Shown: positions 41,370 to 49,413 of the stretch, in pieces
Layout of the letters: every line of letters begins with the position of its first letter
Numbering within the stretch: the stretch's first letter is position 1
Notes under the pieces: model-generated
Told to the model about the DNA's origin: nothing
The model's input: the letters and a program-made list of their open reading frames with translations, nothing else
Database searches by the model: none
Position numbers and translations under genes: made by a program
Source: a phage
Length of the DNA: 64,000 bases
Direction: 5' to 3' (one strand)
Sequence record: PZ452606.1

Positions 41370-43187
41370 CTACTGGCTCATCCATTCTTTACGAAGGTCA
41401 GCATTATCTCCCATGAGCATTTCAAAAAGCTCTTTCCAATTCTCAGGAAGTTTAACAACATCATATACTGGATTTTGAATCATCTCACGATATTCAGATT
41501 TTTCCAAAGAGCCAAGTCCCTTAATATAACGGATGCTATGTTTAGGTAGAGCATCTTTGGCACTCTCATATTCAGCGACTGTATAAAACCATTCTTGTTT
41601 TTTACCGACCTGAGCGATGATTACAGGAGTTTTGACAAAGCGAATTCGTCCTTGCTCAAACAATTCTGGCCAATTACTAAAAAATCCGAGCAGAGAAGGA
41701 TAAATGCTTCCTAGACCATCATGGTCAGCATCAGTCATAATAGCAATATTGCGATAATTCAAGTTTTCAGCTTTTTCACCAAGAACTAGACCAGTGATTG
41801 CGCAAATATCAAATAGTTCTTTGTTTTTAAGCATATCGGCATATGACATACCCCAGCTATTAAGAACTTTACCGCGCAATGGATAACCACCATGAAGTTC
41901 TTTATCGCGAACATCAATAAGATATCCGATAGCTGAATCACCCTCAGTCAAGAACAATGTAGTGTCAGCATCTTTACCGCAAAGATTCGCTTTAATATGT
42001 TTATGAACCTTAGCTTTAGAAGCCTTTTTAGCTGCTTTAGTTTCTGCTGCTTTTTCTGCCGCCAATTTACGAGCCAAAGCAGCTTCAATAATCGGCATTA
42101 GAATTGCTTCATTATTTAGAATAGCACGTGAAATCTTTTTAGCATCAAGTTGAATATGACTACGGATTTCACCAAATGGAGAAGTCAAACGCTCTTTAGT
42201 TTGAGAATCAAATCGCATGTTTTTCATATCACGAACAAACATAACGATAGTCAAACATTCTTTGACACGCGCTTTGGTTACATCAATTTTGAACTTACGT
42301 TTGATTTGTGGAATAAGGTCTTCACAAATATCATCCATAACACAGTCAATGTGATGGCCACCATTCTTAGTGTGAATGTTATTCACGTAAGTTAATTGAC
42401 GAAATCCATCCGGCGAACGACCAACCGCAATAGAACAATTTTCTTGTTCTTGAACAATAGCATGTTCATCATACTGTCGTGCATATTTCTTAAAATTGCC
42501 CTGAACCTTTTTACCATTAAAGGTAAATTGAATATCAGGATAAACAACAGCAAGTGTCTGGAGACGATCCAGTGTAATGTCAAGATAAACTTGGGACAGC
42601 TCATTAGTTTCAAATGACATAAAATCAGGAATGAAAGTAACACGAGTTCCTTTCCATTTTCCAGGAATATCTTCCCATGATTTATTTTCCATGCCATTTG
42701 AGCAACGAACTACAATATTATTTTGACCATCGCCAGTTTCACCGACAAACATCACAGAAAAAATGTTTGTCAAACTAGAACCAACACCGTTCATACCGCC
42801 AGTGACGCGTTCTTTATCATCACCGAAGTTACCACCTGCTTTTGGAATAGTCCACGCAGCAACTGGACCAGGAATTTCTTCACCGGTAGGTGTTTTAACC
42901 ATCGCCTGTGGAATACCACGACCGTTATCTTCAACTGTTACTTGATTGTTTTTAATAGTAACATTAATTTTATTTGCGAATTTAAACTTAGTACGAATAC
43001 CTTCATCGACTGAGTTATCGATAATTTCATCAATAAGCTTAACAAGACCAGGTACATACTGAACACTTTCCCATTTACCAAACAGAAAGCGCTCATGCAT
43101 TTCATTAGCAGAAGAGCCAATATACATGCCGCTACGCTTTTTGATATGTTCAATATCGCTCAGAATTTTAATTTCATTCTTAATCAT
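41370..43187 (-). CDS. 39: topoisomerase II large subunit gp39, uninterrupted
   Basis: 605 aa from ATG at 43187 (track starts at GTG 43190); GHKL ATPase plus Toprim in one ORF; GAGGA SD. Confidence 0.9.
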   Translation of the reverse strand: MIKNEIKILSDIEHIKKRSGMYIGSSANEMHERFLFGKWESVQYVPGLVKLIDEIIDNSVDEGIRTKFKFANKINVTIKNNQVTVEDNGRGIPQAMVKTPTGEEIPGPVAAWTIPKAGGNFGDDKERVTGGMNGVGSSLTNIFSVMFVGETGDGQNNIVVRCSNGMENKSWEDIPGKWKGTRVTFIPDFMSFETNELSQVYLDITLDRLQTLAVVYPDIQFTFNGKKVQGNFKKYARQYDEHAIVQEQENCSIAVGRSPDGFRQLTYVNNIHTKNGGHHIDCVMDDICEDLIPQIKRKFKIDVTKARVKECLTIVMFVRDMKNMRFDSQTKERLTSPFGEIRSHIQLDAKKISRAILNNEAILMPIIEAALARKLAAEKAAETKAAKKASKAKVHKHIKANLCGKDADTTLFLTEGDSAIGYLIDVRDKELHGGYPLRGKVLNSWGMSYADMLKNKELFDICAITGLVLGEKAENLNYRNIAIMTDADHDGLGSIYPSLLGFFSNWPELFEQGRIRFVKTPVIIAQVGKKQEWFYTVAEYESAKDALPKHSIRYIKGLGSLEKSEYREMIQNPVYDVVKLPENWKELFEMLMGDNADLRKEWMSQ

Positions 43188-43214
43188 CACTTATCCTCGT
43201 TTGGTTTCGGGAAT

Positions 43215-43256: not shown

Positions 43257-43526
43257 TTATTTAAAACGAATAGTTGAATCCTTAAAGAACAGCCCAGAAC
43301 ATACTGTTCCTTCTACTTTCTGCCCAGTAGGTCCAATAGCACGAAATCCAGTATGTTGGAAATCATTTTCAGAACAACCAAACCAATTATATCCAGTGAT
43401 TTCAATATTAGTAAAACCACTTGAAGATAAAACTTTGGTTGCATTATCAGCATCAGTACATCCTGCTAAAGACACTGCTAATACTAATGCCGCGATAGAA
43501 CGATTAATATATTTCATAATTTTCAC
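43257..43526 (-). CDS. putative lipoprotein
   Basis: Signal peptide with lipobox LAGC. Confidence 0.55.
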   Translation of the reverse strand: MKIMKYINRSIAALVLAVSLAGCTDADNATKVLSSSGFTNIEITGYNWFGCSENDFQHTGFRAIGPTGQKVEGTVCSGLFFKDSTIRFK

Positions 43527-43894
43527 TCAAATTTAATGGCTTGAAGAAGACTAATAATTCTCAAGCGACTTCTTTCATCTTTAACTGTAAAAGAAAGAGG
43601 GTCACCAGATTTCATAGTAATAGTACATTCAAAATCAAAATCTTCTGTGACTTCTTCGAAGAAGTCAAATTCTTCATCATAAATTAGAACATTACTCTGA
43701 CAACTATGAAGAATTTTTCCATCATTTCCAGATGCTGTACTAATCATTGTAACATTATGACCTTTCATATCTTCAACGATAAATTCACTAGTCAATATTA
43801 CGGCATTAATAGAACTATTCCTATTACTAGCAGAAAGTAGATATTTCTGTTCTTCACCTTCACGAATACGATATTTCTTACCGATTTTAAACAT
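43523..43894 (-). CDS. hypothetical protein
   Basis: 123 aa; 4-nt overlap with lipoprotein gene. Confidence 0.5.
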   Translation of the reverse strand: MFKIGKKYRIREGEEQKYLLSASNRNSSINAVILTSEFIVEDMKGHNVTMISTASGNDGKILHSCQSNVLIYDEEFDFFEEVTEDFDFECTITMKSGDPLSFTVKDERSRLRIISLLQAIKFE

Positions 43895-44075: not shown

Positions 44076-44501
44076 TTATTCCTTAAAGTGAGCTTTCAAC
44101 ATCTGATACAAGGACCATGCATGTTCATTATTTTCAATAGTAACTTTCATGACTGGGAATTCTGTGAAATCTTCTATTTGTTCTTGCTCTTTCTCTTCCT
44201 GCTCTTGCTCTTCAACTGCCTGATATGGATTTTCCACTTCATCAAAGAACCCAGCTTCGTTAGTAGAAAGCCAAATAAAGTTTTCGTCAAGGATATCACC
44301 ATGTGTTGCATATCCAACTGTGCCAGTAGATGTCACAATTTTAGTAGGACGACCAAGATGGTCAACATCTAAAATTTTAAAAGGATGCATACCTAAACGG
44401 CGTGCATAGATTCCGTTATCAGTATGATCTTTAATAAAATTTTCTTGAGCTTGTTTATTTTTAAATTGATACCATTTATTAACTTCAAATCTAATAGCCA
44501 T
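44076..44501 (-). CDS. goF: GoF (comC-alpha) protein
   Basis: 141 aa ORF downstream of gene 39 region as in T4. Confidence 0.65.
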
Positions 44502-44716
44502 TAATAAATTTCCTTCCAGTAAGTTGTACCGTCTTCAGTGATTTCACGGAATACACCATAAATCGGTTGTTTATCACCAACCTTTTCATACACATAAACC
44601 GAAGTCAAGTGAGTAAACTTAACGGTATGTTCCTTTTGAACTACTACCAAATCTGGATCGAATAATACATCTTCAAATTCGTCATTAGTGCAATTCTGAA
44701 CAATTTTACGTTTCAT
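44501..44716 (-). CDS. cef: Cef, modifier of suppressor tRNAs
   Basis: 71 aa ORF adjacent to goF as in T4. Confidence 0.55.
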
Positions 44717-44729
44717 TACAATTTCCTCA

Positions 44730-44999
44730 TTAATTGAACAGTGGAGCGATGCGTTTCAGAAGAGTAGCAGCACCTTTGGCAAATTTTACATCATGAAAAA
44801 CAGTTTCTTCTTCCGTTACAACACGAGCTTTAATGTTTTCACAATCCCAATTTTTGCGAACAATCTTCAAAAGCTGCAGTAAATCTTTACATTCAGCAAT
44901 ATCGATAACACATCCACGAGAATCTTCCATTATCGCACGATAACCATAAGCCATACCATAATCATTGAAAGATTGCTCGATGATAATTAAGTTTTCCAT
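44730..44999 (-). CDS. hypothetical protein
   Basis: ATG at 44999 with GGAGAA SD downstream of an early promoter. Confidence 0.5.
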   Translation of the reverse strand: MENLIIIEQSFNDYGMAYGYRAIMEDSRGCVIDIAECKDLLQLLKIVRKNWDCENIKARVVTEEETVFHDVKFAKGAATLLKRIAPLFN

Positions 45000-45023
45000 T
45001 TTATTCTCCAAGTTGTTTTCTGT

Positions 45024-45066
45024 ATCAGTAGTTGATATTGATATAATACCATAATCAACTACTGAT
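45024..45066. repeat. 13-bp perfect inverted repeat bracketing a -10 element
   Basis: atcagtagttgat ... atcaactactgat with 17-nt spacer containing TATTAT on minus strand. Confidence 0.7.
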
Positions 45067-45096
45067 GTATATAGTTTTATGAAAAAATTTTAAACT

Positions 45097-45588
45097 TTAT
45101 GCATAGCGAGCTTTGCTATAGTGTTTAATCCAACTTTCAGGAATGACTTTGTATGTTCCTAAAAATACCGCGTTGTATAACTTAACGCCATCTTCTACCC
45201 ATTGATCAGTAATGTATGCACACATAGCGCGAGTACGGTTAACAACACCTTCCTCACCTTCAGTAAATTCAAACTCATAAGGAGCAACGAACTTGATAGC
45301 TTGACCGAGTTTCCACTTAAAGTCTACACCTACATGCGAAGTATCAATCGTTTCAATTCCTTTAGCAGGAACAGCTTTCAAAAACGCAGATTCAAGAAAT
45401 TTCGCACGAACATAGCCAAACTGAGGTTTAGACTTTCCATCTTTAGGAATGATACGCACTTTTACTTCAGAATCTTCATCTTTAACACCGTGTTTAAGCT
45501 GAATGCTTACAACTTCGACCAATTTTCCTGCTGCTTTAGAGCGGGATTTATCAGATACACGAGCTAATTCACCAATATTAATAATCAT
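45097..45588 (-). CDS. motB: MotB-like protein
   Basis: 163 aa ORF at the T4 motB position; identity not verified. Confidence 0.5.
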   Translation of the reverse strand: MIINIGELARVSDKSRSKAAGKLVEVVSIQLKHGVKDEDSEVKVRIIPKDGKSKPQFGYVRAKFLESAFLKAVPAKGIETIDTSHVGVDFKWKLGQAIKFVAPYEFEFTEGEEGVVNRTRAMCAYITDQWVEDGVKLYNAVFLGTYKVIPESWIKHYSKARYA

Positions 45589-45632
45589 AGTTATCTCTCA
45601 CTTGTTAAAAAGATTTTATACTCCACGGGACC

Positions 45633-45661
45633 ATTATACTCTGGTCCCAAGAGTTTGTAAA
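45633..45661 (-). promoter_or_regulatory. early promoter upstream of motB-like gene
   Basis: TTTACA-17-TATAAT; -10 flanked by GGGACC/GGTCCC inverted repeat. Confidence 0.55.
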
Positions 45662-46099
45662 CTAGCTTACACGAACATTAATCACTGCGCTACGAGGAAC
45701 TACAGAGTATTCTCCAGCATGAACTACGTTCAGAAGTTCAACACCATCTTCAATCCACTGATCAGTCACCCATCCACCCACAGGATTCGCGAATGGACGA
45801 CGAATATAAACTGCCTTACACAGCAGATCAGTTGGATCTTCAGGTTTTTCAATTTCTGTCAATAGACTAAAATCTTTTTCATAAATAATAAGCGATGATA
45901 CCATTCCATAATAGTTTCTAATTTCAATATACATCATACCGATAAGAATTCCGCTATTAACACTAATAACAGTAAAAGGATATCCGCCAGTTAAACCAAG
46001 AAGTTCACAAAACTTATTATGAGCTGTATTAGACAGTACCGAAAAATTCTTAATTTCATCAAATTTTTTCAATTGATAAACAGCATTATTTTTAATCAT
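45662..46099 (-). CDS. hypothetical protein sharing a C-terminal module with the MotB-like protein
   Basis: C-terminus VTDQWIEDGVELLNVVHAGEYSVVPRS resembles ITDQWVEDGVKLYNAVFLGTYKVIPES of the neighbour. Confidence 0.5.
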   Translation of the reverse strand: MIKNNAVYQLKKFDEIKNFSVLSNTAHNKFCELLGLTGGYPFTVISVNSGILIGMMYIEIRNYYGMVSSLIIYEKDFSLLTEIEKPEDPTDLLCKAVYIRRPFANPVGGWVTDQWIEDGVELLNVVHAGEYSVVPRSAVINVRVS

Positions 46100-46109
46100 G
46101 ATTTTCTCT

Positions 46110-46613
46110 TTAATCTAAAGTAATAAAGCCTTTTAATTCGGCATGGGATTTACGGAACATTACTTGGTGCCCGCCAATGATAACTTGATCATCTGGAACT
46201 TCGTATACAGCGAGATAAAATCCTTTAGAAGATAATTCTTCACGCTCTTCTCGTGTGAACCATCTCATCATATCATATTCGCTAGCGAAAGCAAAATGAT
46301 AAAGAGCTATAAACCATCCTGGAATATAGTGATCTACGCCTACATATTCTTCTTTCTCAAAATTAGTATTAATTGCTATATTAGCATTTTTAACTAATAA
46401 TTTGTCTTCGTGTGGAAGAGGAATTCTTTTATTATCATTACTATGATGCATAAAATTAGGTCTGTCATAACCTACGTATAATAACCACTCTTCGCTCCAT
46501 GAATCTATTATACTCCTGTATGGCGTTATTTGAACACAAAGATCTCGACGTATTGTTATAGCATCTTCATAATTAAGAATACTAAACGATGATTCAACAC
46601 GATAAATTTTCAT
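46110..46613 (-). CDS. hypothetical protein
   Basis: ATG at 46613 with GAGGA SD downstream of an early promoter. Confidence 0.5.
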   Translation of the reverse strand: MKIYRVESSFSILNYEDAITIRRDLCVQITPYRSIIDSWSEEWLLYVGYDRPNFMHHSNDNKRIPLPHEDKLLVKNANIAINTNFEKEEYVGVDHYIPGWFIALYHFAFASEYDMMRWFTREEREELSSKGFYLAVYEVPDDQVIIGGHQVMFRKSHAELKGFITLD

Positions 46614-46639
46614 TTTATTATCCTCAGTAGCTATGGTGT

Positions 46640-46668
46640 TATAATACCACAACTAACCGAGGAAGTAA
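46640..46668 (-). promoter_or_regulatory. early (sigma70) promoter
   Basis: TTTACT-17-TATTAT. Confidence 0.5.
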
Positions 46669-46676
46669 ACAACTTT

Positions 46677-47360
46677 TTATCGTTTAGTTGGAAGAGATAG
46701 AGGATCGCATTCTTCCTCTGACGGAGCATCTTCAAGACCCATAGCATATCGCAAAGCATACTTCATCATCAGGATGTCTTTCGCACAGTCATGAATAGAA
46801 TCATGTGCAACGAATCCATCTAAAGTTCCTTTTGGAAGAGGACACGTGGTCATATCACGAACAAGCAGAAGTGCTTCAATTCTGGTACGAATATCACGCT
46901 GATTCCAGAATTTACATGGTTCTAACTTAAATGTATCAAGCTCATTCTCGGAAACGCCATTAAGACGTTGAATATCGCGAATGAGATCGACTAAAATTGG
47001 AAAATCAAACGACATTCCACGGCACCAGCCTTGAGATTTCCAAGGATCGATATTATGTGCATTGATGTAATCGTTGAATTTTGCAATACCATCAATGGTG
47101 CTTACATCTTCATCGGATGGTGCAATATTTTTTCGAGCTTCAGGAGACTGATTTTTCCACCATTCGATAGTGCTTTTAGTAAAAAGACGATGTCCTTTTT
47201 GGCTTTTTAAATCAAATTTGATTTTAATGCCACGTGAAACTAGTTCATCGAATGATTCAACTACTTCTGGGTTAGGGTCAAAAGCAATTACAGCCAAATC
47301 AATAACAGCTGCTTTTTCACCGCTTCCCATTGTTTCAAAATCTATAATAAAATCAAACAT
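46677..47360 (-). CDS. dexA: exonuclease A
   Basis: 227 aa; DEDD-type exonuclease; matches T4 DexA start MFDFIIDFETMGSGEKAAVIDLAVIAFD. Confidence 0.9.
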   Translation of the reverse strand: MFDFIIDFETMGSGEKAAVIDLAVIAFDPNPEVVESFDELVSRGIKIKFDLKSQKGHRLFTKSTIEWWKNQSPEARKNIAPSDEDVSTIDGIAKFNDYINAHNIDPWKSQGWCRGMSFDFPILVDLIRDIQRLNGVSENELDTFKLEPCKFWNQRDIRTRIEALLLVRDMTTCPLPKGTLDGFVAHDSIHDCAKDILMMKYALRYAMGLEDAPSEEECDPLSLPTKR

Positions 47361-48093: not shown

Positions 48094-49413
48094 TCACACA
48101 TAAAACACATCATAACGACCACGTGTTACACCAACATAAAGAAGTTGTTGAGCTAATTCAGCATCTGCATAATGAATACAAGGCGTATAAATGAAAGCAC
48201 GGTCTACAGACATACCCTGAGCTTTATGGAATGTTGATGCAGGAAGTGCTTTCACTTTACTGAACTGTGATTTAGCATCCCAAAAATCACTCCATGGAGC
48301 TTTTCCGCCTTTGTTCCAATTTTTATAAGTTTCTGCCGTTTTACCTAAAAATAGGTTAAACTTATATAGCTCTTCATCAGATGAAATTATTTTAATCTTT
48401 TCACGATAATATTCATCATCGCCGTAAGTTTCTACTGTTAAATCCCAATGACGAATTAAGTATTCTCCAGGAACACCACGAGCTTTAACAAACGTTGATG
48501 TATACTCTGCTTCTATAATACGAACTAATTGTCCATTATTAAAAATAATTTCTGATACAGGCTTTCCATCAATTTTATATGTTTTAATTAATGGTTCCTG
48601 CATTACAATAATTTCACCGACAATAAAATCTTTATCAGTTTCAAAAATCTTTTTACGAATAATGCTATTTAACTTGTCAACAGATTTATTCGTAAATGCC
48701 ATTACGCGATTTTCAAACAAATCATCTAGAGATTTGACGATTGAAAAATAATTTACCATAAAATCGCGTAAAGCGGTATCACCAGTAAATCCACGTACTC
48801 CATGCCCGTCAACAACTTTATCATAAATCCACTTACCGTTGCGAACATCAGTAGCTACATCAATAATAGGAGCATTACTGCGTTTAACTTCAGTGAGTTC
48901 ACACTGATAAAAATCTTTATGTGTAAAGAATGGACTGATATAAGCAGTGTTTTCTCCTGGGTCAACAGGTCTAATTTGCTTATTATCGCCTATTCCAATT
49001 ATAGTACACCACGGTGGGATAGTTGAAAGCAAAATTTTGAAGAGCTTTCTATCATACATTGACACTTCGTCGCAGATTAATACCCTGCATTTAGCTAAAT
49101 CTGGTACTTCTTTTTGTTCAAAAAGAACGTTTTCTTCATACGTAACTGGGTTAATTTTAAGAATACTGTGAATAGTACTCGCTTCTTTCCCCGACAGTTT
49201 TGAAAGAATCTTTTTAGCTGCATGAGTAGGAGCTGCTAAAATAATACCAGTTTCACCCGTAGATATTAAAGCTTCAATGATGAATTTTGTAAGAGTAGTC
49301 TTACCAGTACCAGCAGGTCCATTAATAGTTACATGATGTTTCTTTTCTTTAATAGCCCTCATAACGATGTTAAAGGCATTTTTTTGGCCTTCTGTCAAAT
49401 CATCAAATGTCAT
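48094..49413 (-). CDS. dda: Dda DNA helicase (SF1B)
   Basis: 439 aa; Walker A GPAGTGKT; matches T4 Dda N-terminus. Confidence 0.95.
   Translation of the reverse strand: MTFDDLTEGQKNAFNIVMRAIKEKKHHVTINGPAGTGKTTLTKFIIEALISTGETGIILAAPTHAAKKILSKLSGKEASTIHSILKINPVTYEENVLFEQKEVPDLAKCRVLICDEVSMYDRKLFKILLSTIPPWCTIIGIGDNKQIRPVDPGENTAYISPFFTHKDFYQCELTEVKRSNAPIIDVATDVRNGKWIYDKVVDGHGVRGFTGDTALRDFMVNYFSIVKSLDDLFENRVMAFTNKSVDKLNSIIRKKIFETDKDFIVGEIIVMQEPLIKTYKIDGKPVSEIIFNNGQLVRIIEAEYTSTFVKARGVPGEYLIRHWDLTVETYGDDEYYREKIKIISSDEELYKFNLFLGKTAETYKNWNKGGKAPWSDFWDAKSQFSKVKALPASTFHKAQGMSVDRAFIYTPCIHYADAELAQQLLYVGVTRGRYDVFYV

What the first reader, a model, noticed from the sequence alone, without database searches (positions are those of the whole stretch)
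45097..46099. Shared C-terminal module between MotB-like protein and its neighbour
The 163-aa MotB-like protein and the adjacent 145-aa ORF end in a similar ~30-residue segment (ITDQWVEDGVKLYNAVFLGTYKVIPES versus VTDQWIEDGVELLNVVHAGEYSVVPRS) while their N-terminal parts differ. This points to domain shuffling or duplication, possibly a shared interaction domain.
Basis: seen in the sequence. Interest (0 to 1): 0.45.

Follow-up and report, generated by a model that had tools for sequence, protein, structure and literature searches.

The report
Shared C-terminal barrel of MotB and MotB.1
Two neighbouring early genes of a T4-like phage, motB and motB.1, really do end in the same small protein domain behind unrelated front halves, but this was already published for phage T4 in 2021, so the finding is correct and ordinary.

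The parts
45097..45588 (-). motB, 163 aa: basic KOW-like N-terminal barrel, disordered linker, then the shared C-terminal barrel
   Evidence: Pfam PF17613 at 334.8 bits over the full length. PHROG 1671 E 3.5e-76. Annotated MotB in Kha5h and T4. AF2 pLDDT 79.7, with linker residues 70-83 below 50.
45391..45588 (-). MotB N-terminal domain (residues 1-66), KOW/SH3-like and basic (pI 9.75)
45118..45312 (-). MotB copy of the shared module (residues 93-157, 65 aa), including a 13-residue insertion in the loop between strands 1 and 2
   Evidence: hhalign. AF2 strands 97-110, 115-132, 135-142 and 145-150, a helical turn at 151-153, then strand 154-157.
45133..45219 (-). MotB core of the module (residues 124-152, AYITDQWVEDGVKLYNAVFLGTYKVIPES)
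   Evidence: BLASTP. Translation check.
45633..45661 (-). Early-type promoter for motB in the 73-bp spacer between motB.1 and motB (TTTACA, 17 nt, TATAAT)
   Evidence: 11 of 12 consensus matches. Kha5h annotates a host-consensus promoter at the same place. The spacer is identical to T4.
45662..46099 (-). motB.1, 145 aa: LSm/SH3-like N-terminal barrel plus the shared C-terminal barrel
   Evidence: 100% identical to the RB27 product. PHROG 2333 E 6.7e-68. Sits in the position of T4 motB.1, T4p012. AF2 pLDDT 81.8.
45848..46099 (-). MotB.1 N-terminal domain (residues 1-84), the LSm-like fold shared with GoF and Frd.2
   Evidence: Kim et al. 2025, PMC12152347. AF2 strands 7-10, 42-49, 55-61, 67-73 and 80-83, with helices 19-22, 26-37 and 74-79. 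BFVD hit to GoF, E 8e-3.
45674..45826 (-). MotB.1 copy of the shared module (residues 92-142, 51 aa)
   Evidence: hhalign. AF2 strands 96-99, 107-117, 120-127 and 130-135, a helical turn at 136-138, then strand 139-143.
45689..45775 (-). MotB.1 core of the module (residues 109-137, GWVTDQWIEDGVELLNVVHAGEYSVVPRS)
   Evidence: BLASTP. 92% mean pairwise identity across the family. 8 synonymous and 0 non-synonymous codon differences from T4T.

Best explanation
motB and motB.1 are tandem paralogues in the dispensable early region of a T4-like phage. Each encodes a two-domain protein. They share one homologous C-terminal domain: a 50-65-residue, five-stranded small beta-barrel of the SH3/Tudor/KOW kind with the signature [ST]-D-Q-W-[VI]-E-[DE]-G-x-x-L-x-N-x-V. 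Their N-terminal domains are unrelated. MotB has a basic KOW-like barrel, the likely DNA-binding part. MotB.1 has an acidic LSm-like barrel related to GoF. The pair arose by an old duplication of a KOW + C-terminal-domain gene, followed by replacement of the N-terminal domain in one copy; this is inferred from domain architectures in relatives. It did not arise by recent recombination. For function, my best inference is that the acidic, extremely conserved module is a docking or oligomerisation surface, not the nucleic-acid-binding surface. It would bring two different nucleic-acid-binding heads to the same partner or assembly. H-NS/StpA nucleoprotein, with which MotB copurifies, is the leading candidate. 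Homology, extent, predicted fold, charge, conservation and distribution are shown here. The evolutionary direction, the binding role and the partner are inferred.
Confidence: 0.9

Rival explanations
1. The similarity is chance or a composition effect in an AT-rich genome.
For: Only about 29 residues align in a plain BLASTP.
Against: z = 15.3 with 0 of 5000 shuffles. E 3e-8 against all window ORFs, with no other hit. Profile-profile probability 98-99%. Independent Pfam and PHROG profiles cross-match.
Confidence: 0.01
2. The shared segment reflects recent gene conversion or recombination between adjacent genes, or a conserved DNA element, and not an old protein-domain duplication.
For: The genes are adjacent and in the same orientation. 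The motif GAAGATG inside the module is a deletion junction in some phages.
Against: DNA identity in the core is only 60%. Third codon positions match in 14 of 29, against 18 and 20 of 29 at positions 1 and 2, and only 10 of 16 identical residues use the same codon. The two subfamilies are distinct across many phages, with VKLYN.VF in MotB and VELLNVVH in MotB.1.
Confidence: 0.04
3. The shared module is an OB-fold (cold-shock-like) nucleic-acid-binding domain, as proposed from HHpred in 2021. It is what makes both proteins bind DNA or RNA.
For: HHpred hits of the MotB C-terminal domain to the eIF5A C-terminal OB domain (PMC7827196). MotB binds DNA tightly. Small barrels often bind nucleic acids.
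Confidence: 0.15
4. The module is chiefly a homo- or hetero-oligomerisation domain. It would support MotB spreading on DNA and possibly MotB-MotB.1 heteromers, without any host partner.
For: MotB appears to spread cooperatively along DNA. MotB.1 and GoF run partly as dimers on non-reducing gels. Cysteines recur at two positions of the module.
Against: The dimer bands were seen with the 13.8-kDa MotB.1 form, which lacks most of the module, and with GoF, which lacks it entirely.
Confidence: 0.25

Closest known systems
T4 MotB / MotB.1 shared C-terminal domain (Patterson-West et al. 2021, Viruses 13:84, PMC7827196); Pfam PF17613 'motB'
   Same: Same genes, same gene order (motB.1 immediately upstream of motB), same shared C-terminal domain with different N-terminal domains, and the same suggestion of duplication. 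MotB here is about 89% identical to P0124, a 162-aa T4-type MotB cluster representative, and MotB.1 about 81% identical to the intact T4 form.
   Different: This phage's MotB.1 is the intact 145-aa form, whereas the T4 reference product is a 119-aa frameshifted form. Here the domain is read as an SH3/Tudor-like barrel, not an OB-fold, and its extent is defined as 51 aligned columns with a 13-residue insertion in MotB.
GoF / MotB.1 / Frd.2 LSm-like fold family (Kim et al. 2025, PMC12152347)
   Same: The MotB.1 N-terminal domain (residues 1-84) has the predicted five-stranded bent sheet with inserted helices. The window also carries goF (44076-44501) and a second GoF paralogue (43523-43894).
   Different: That family is defined by the N-terminal domain, which MotB lacks. 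It says nothing about the shared C-terminal module, which GoF and Frd.2 do not have.
Tandem small-barrel readers and adaptors: 53BP1 tandem Tudor, Spt5/NusG KOW domains

Membership tests
Pfam PF17613 (motB, modifier of transcription) | Score at or above the gathering threshold (25 bits) against the family HMM | tested here: met
   MotB scores 334.8 bits over profile positions 1-162. MotB.1 scores 32.7 bits, but only over profile positions 118-153, which is the shared core.
Pfam PF17613 (motB, modifier of transcription) | Full-length architecture: KOW-like N-terminus + linker + C-terminal domain | tested here: not met
   This row applies to MotB.1 only. Its N-terminal 84 residues show no relation to the MotB N-terminus (hhalign probability 0.3%). 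MotB itself meets this feature.
MotB.1 family (PHROG 2333; category 2 of Patterson-West 2021) | LSm-like N-terminal domain followed by a MotB.1-type C-terminal domain (DPTDLLCK...GWVTDQWIEDGVELLNVVH...PRS), encoded directly upstream of motB | tested here: met
   PHROG 2333 E 6.7e-68 over residues 1-144. Alignment A2. Gene order as in T4.
LSm-like fold family GoF / MotB.1 / Frd.2 (Kim 2025) | N-terminal bent five-stranded antiparallel sheet | tested here: met
   The AF2 model of MotB.1 has strands 7-10, 42-49, 55-61, 67-73 and 80-83 at pLDDT about 80-88. BFVD Foldseek hit to GoF, E 8e-3. This is a predicted structure only.
OB-fold, cold-shock DNA-binding-like (SCOPe b.40.4.5), as proposed for the MotB C-terminal domain | Five-stranded barrel with order b1-b2-b3-helix-b4-b5 and structural similarity to OB proteins | tested here: not met
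SH3-like small beta-barrel (Tudor / KOW / chromo 'royal' superfold) | About 50-65 residues, five strands, a variable RT-like loop between strands 1 and 2, and a 3-10 turn between strands 4 and 5 | tested here: met
Tudor / chromo methyl-lysine readers | Aromatic cage that binds a methylated Lys or Arg | not testable with these tools
Conserved aromatics exist (invariant F and W) but their geometry was not examined.

The most novel reading that the evidence does not exclude
The shared acidic Tudor/SH3-like barrel is a dedicated adaptor. It would dock two different nucleic-acid-binding heads, the DNA-binding KOW of MotB and the LSm-like and possibly RNA-binding head of MotB.1, onto one basic host target such as the H-NS/StpA filament, or onto each other. 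motB.1 and motB would then form a two-component anti-nucleoid module. On this reading, the published negative results for MotB.1 were obtained with a frameshift-truncated protein lacking the adaptor.
Probability: 0.15. Interest if true: 0.45.

Novelty: already known. Interest (0 to 1): 0.15.

Why it matters
In itself it matters little, because the shared C-terminal domain of MotB and MotB.1 is published. The useful residue is practical. First, the domain looks like an acidic SH3/Tudor-like docking barrel and not an OB-type DNA binder, which changes which domain one would mutate to separate DNA binding from H-NS-related effects. Second, the T4 reference sequence truncates MotB.1 inside this domain, while T4T and another T4 clone, like this phage, encode the intact protein. 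Experiments built on the 13.8-kDa reference product may therefore have tested a broken protein. Third, the module is confined to a very small set of T4-like phage proteins and is under strong purifying selection, which argues for a specific conserved target worth looking for.

Tried and rejected
I looked for a third copy or remnant of the module in the window with a six-frame HMM scan and found none.

I tested whether the C-terminal module is related at sequence level to either N-terminal barrel, using hhalign on sub-alignments. It is not; all probabilities are below 4%.

A profile search of PDB sequences with the C-terminal-domain alignment gave no hit even at E 10.

A Pfam scan of 19 C-terminal-domain sequences at E 10 returned only PF17613.

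An Rfam scan of the whole window found nothing at gathering score.

Three long proteins in the representative search (P0248-P0250, 600-840 aa, 4-7 stretches) were rejected as relatives. P0250, the only one whose sequence was retrieved and read, carries a repeated motif 'SGYATEQWV.DK', and all three match only part of the profile (positions 18-51 or less) at 38.7-45 bits.

The ungapped codon comparisons 'MotB module' and 'MotB.1 NTD' are thrown off by indels and were not used.

Full report
**Identity of the locus**

The window is a T4-like myovirus of the genus Tequatrovirus. Bases 44700-46700 are 98.5% identical to phages ESh33 and teqdroes. The 145-aa product is 100% identical to that of RB27.

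All genes around the finding lie on the minus strand, in the T4 order:
- gene 39: 41370-43190
- 39.1
- an extra 123-aa ORF
- 39.2
- goF: 44076-44501
- cef: 44501-44716
- an extra 93-aa ORF
- motB: 45097-45588
- motB.1: 45662-46099
- motB.2: 46110-46613 from its ATG
- dexA: 46677-47360
- dda: 48094-49413

Its 'neighbour' is MotB.1.

**Check of the observation**

The quoted segments are present at MotB 126-152 and MotB.1 111-137. The evidence that they are homologous is as follows.
- BLASTP aligns MotB 124-152 with MotB.1 109-137: 16/29 identical, no gaps, E 5e-10.
- Against all 266 ORFs of the window the match keeps E 3e-8 and is the only one.
- The Smith-Waterman score is 98 against 28.1 +/- 4.6 for 5000 shuffles (z 15.3, none reaching it).
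- Independent curated profiles agree. PF17613 hits MotB.1 only at residues 104-139, at 32.7 bits against a threshold of 25. PHROG 1671 (MotB) hits the last 60 residues of MotB.1 at E 2.9e-15.

**Extent of the shared module**

I aligned 23 MotB-family and 17 MotB.1-family proteins retrieved from the large protein collection.

Profile-profile comparison extends the homology to 51 columns, MotB 93-157 against MotB.1 92-142. The probability is 98.35% and E is 1.1e-14. MotB carries a 13-residue insertion between the first and second strands.

With sub-alignments, C-terminal domain against C-terminal domain gives 99% probability (E 5.8e-18). Every comparison involving an N-terminal domain gives below 4%.

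Columns invariant across both families are L, F, D, W, E, G, L, N, V, V. They form the signature DQW-x-E-x-G-x-x-L-x-N-x-V. A six-frame profile scan finds only these two copies in the 64 kb.

**Predicted structure**

The AlphaFold2 model of MotB.1 has pLDDT 81.8 and that of MotB 79.7, with a disordered linker at MotB 70-83. Each protein is predicted as two small barrels.

In both C-terminal domains the order is strand 1, loop, strand 2, strand 3, strand 4, a three-residue helical turn, strand 5. This is the SH3-like small-barrel order. An OB-fold has its helix between strands 3 and 4. The insertion in MotB lengthens the loop between strands 1 and 2 into a hairpin.

- No cold-shock-type OB protein is named in either top 60.

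The OB-fold assignment made from HHpred in 2021 is therefore not supported by these models. Two caveats apply. The models are predictions, and the tables do not show which barrel produced each match.

**Evolution**

At DNA level the two cores are 60% identical. Only 14 of 29 third positions match, so the duplication is old and there is no recent gene conversion.

The module is under strong purifying selection. Between this phage and T4T, the MotB.1 module has 13 synonymous and 1 non-synonymous codon differences, and the core has 8 and 0. Across the MotB.1 family the C-terminal domain averages 80% identity (core 92%), while the N-terminal domain averages 40% with a minimum of 14%.

A profile of the module, searched exhaustively against 1.84 billion representative proteins, finds only 31 clusters at E <= 0.001. 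Three of these are long repeat proteins that I rejected as relatives. P0250, the only one of them I retrieved and read, carries a repeated motif SGYATEQWV.DK. The rest are small proteins.

In 250 retrieved proteins the module is always C-terminal. It sits behind a MotB-type KOW domain (109 proteins), behind one or more LSm-like barrels (about 120), or alone (10).

Distant members P0246 and P0252 reach the Pfam KOW gathering score and also carry the module. Hybrids such as P0234, P0236 and P0239-P0241 join a KOW head to a MotB.1-type C-terminal domain. The most economical reading is an ancestral KOW + C-terminal-domain gene that was duplicated in tandem, with the upstream copy acquiring a GoF-like LSm head. 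The direction of this history is inferred, not shown.

**Likely mechanism**

The MotB N-terminal domain is basic: pI 9.75, family mean net charge +4.5. The shared module is acidic in every member examined: core mean -2.3 in MotB and -4.0 in MotB.1. MotB.1 overall has pI 5.35.

MotB is known to bind DNA tightly and without sequence specificity, and apparently to spread along it. [quoted passage not shown]

From the charge, the fold class and the extreme conservation, I infer that the KOW head binds DNA. I also infer that the shared barrel is a docking or self-association surface common to both proteins. H-NS/StpA nucleoprotein is the leading candidate partner.

This is inference. No domain-level experiment exists. 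The rival readings, a nucleic-acid-binding OB-like domain or a pure oligomerisation domain, are not excluded.

**Comparison with the literature**

The finding is already published. Patterson-West et al. [quoted passage not shown] They also describe MotB.1-like categories with other N-terminal domains and a 29-aa stand-alone peptide in RB69.

Kim et al. 2025 show that the MotB.1 N-terminal domain belongs with GoF and Frd.2 to an LSm-like fold family. Only these two papers in the searchable library mention MotB.1.

The present analysis adds four things: the extent of the domain, the SH3-like fold assignment in place of the OB-fold, the charge argument, and the narrow distribution.

**Side observation: a frameshift in the T4 reference**

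In the T4 reference record NC_000866.4, motB.1 encodes a 119-aa, 13.8-kDa product ending ...GGWVTDQWIGRWR. An extra G (GGATTGGAAGATGG against GGATT-GAAGATGG here) shifts the frame inside the shared module. The +1 frame continues with the intact EDGVELLNVVHAGEYSVVPRSAVVAILN.

T4T (HM137666) and a T4 clone (MZ375356) both annotate an intact 432-nt gene. The intact 143-aa protein carries several further T4-labelled accessions and was seen on 256 contigs.

Kim et al. describe MotB.1 as a 13.8-kDa monomer made from synthesised genes, with only a trace of soluble protein. They may therefore have studied a form cut after strand 2 of the barrel. This is an inference from the stated mass, not a demonstrated fact.

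**Verdict**

The feature is already known and interest is low. The side observations above are the only parts that go beyond the published work.

Noticed in passing
L002 (NC_000866.4) locus 2292-2651, corresponding to window 45689-45775: The T4 reference motB.1 (119 aa, 13.8 kDa) has an extra G inside the shared module (GGATTGGAAGATGG) that truncates the protein after ...WVTDQWI. The +1 frame continues intact. T4T (HM137666) and T4 clone MZ375356 encode the intact 143-aa (16.2 kDa) protein. Published MotB.1 experiments quote 13.8 kDa and poor solubility, so they may have used the truncated form.
   Followed up: yes
window 43523-43894 (- strand): A 123-aa ORF between 39.1 and 39.2, absent from T4 at this position, is a second GoF paralogue. 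It hits PHROG 622 at E 3.6e-30, the same family as goF at 44076-44501, and weakly hits the MotB.1 family PHROG 2333 at E 1.3e-3 through the LSm-like domain.
   Followed up: partly
P0247 (43 aa); junction corresponds to window motB.2 nt 45-51 (about 46563-46569) and motB.1 nt 348-354 (about 45746-45752): Some phages carry a 43-aa ORF, MKIYRVESSFSILDYEDGVELLNVVHAGDFSVVPRSAVVAILN. It joins the first 17 residues of MotB.2 to the last 26 of MotB.1. This is consistent with a deletion between two copies of the 7-nt microhomology GAAGATG. It probably explains stand-alone 'core motif' peptides such as the 29-aa ORF reported in RB69.
   Followed up: partly
MotB.1 relatives P0004, P0020, P0027, P0028, P0030, P0031, P0040, P0236, P0239-P0241 (no copy in the window protein): A short motif, about [IF]-D-x-D-[ILV]-x-[SC]-x-Y-x-x-[PL]-[VI], occurs at varying positions. 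It can lie N-terminal of the LSm barrel, in a 22-aa insert between the two domains (P0004 is otherwise 97% identical to the window protein), or after a KOW head. Its role is unknown.
   Followed up: no
window 45589-45670 (- strand): The motB.1-motB spacer is identical to T4. It contains a stable hairpin (GGGACC...GGTCCC, whole stretch -25.6 kcal/mol, z -4.06) whose loop holds the TATAAT of the predicted early promoter of motB.
   Followed up: partly
window 44730-45011 (- strand): A 93-aa ORF between cef and motB (PHROG 3720, unknown function) has no annotated counterpart in T4, where this interval is a 170-bp gap.
   Followed up: no
window 41370-43190 (- strand): Gene 39 (topoisomerase II large subunit) is a single 606-aa ORF here. 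It is not split into genes 39 and 60 as in T4.
   Followed up: no
L004 (MZ375356.1, mutant T4 clone 583L): In this T4 deletion clone dexA lies directly next to motB.1, and motB.2 is missing.
   Followed up: no
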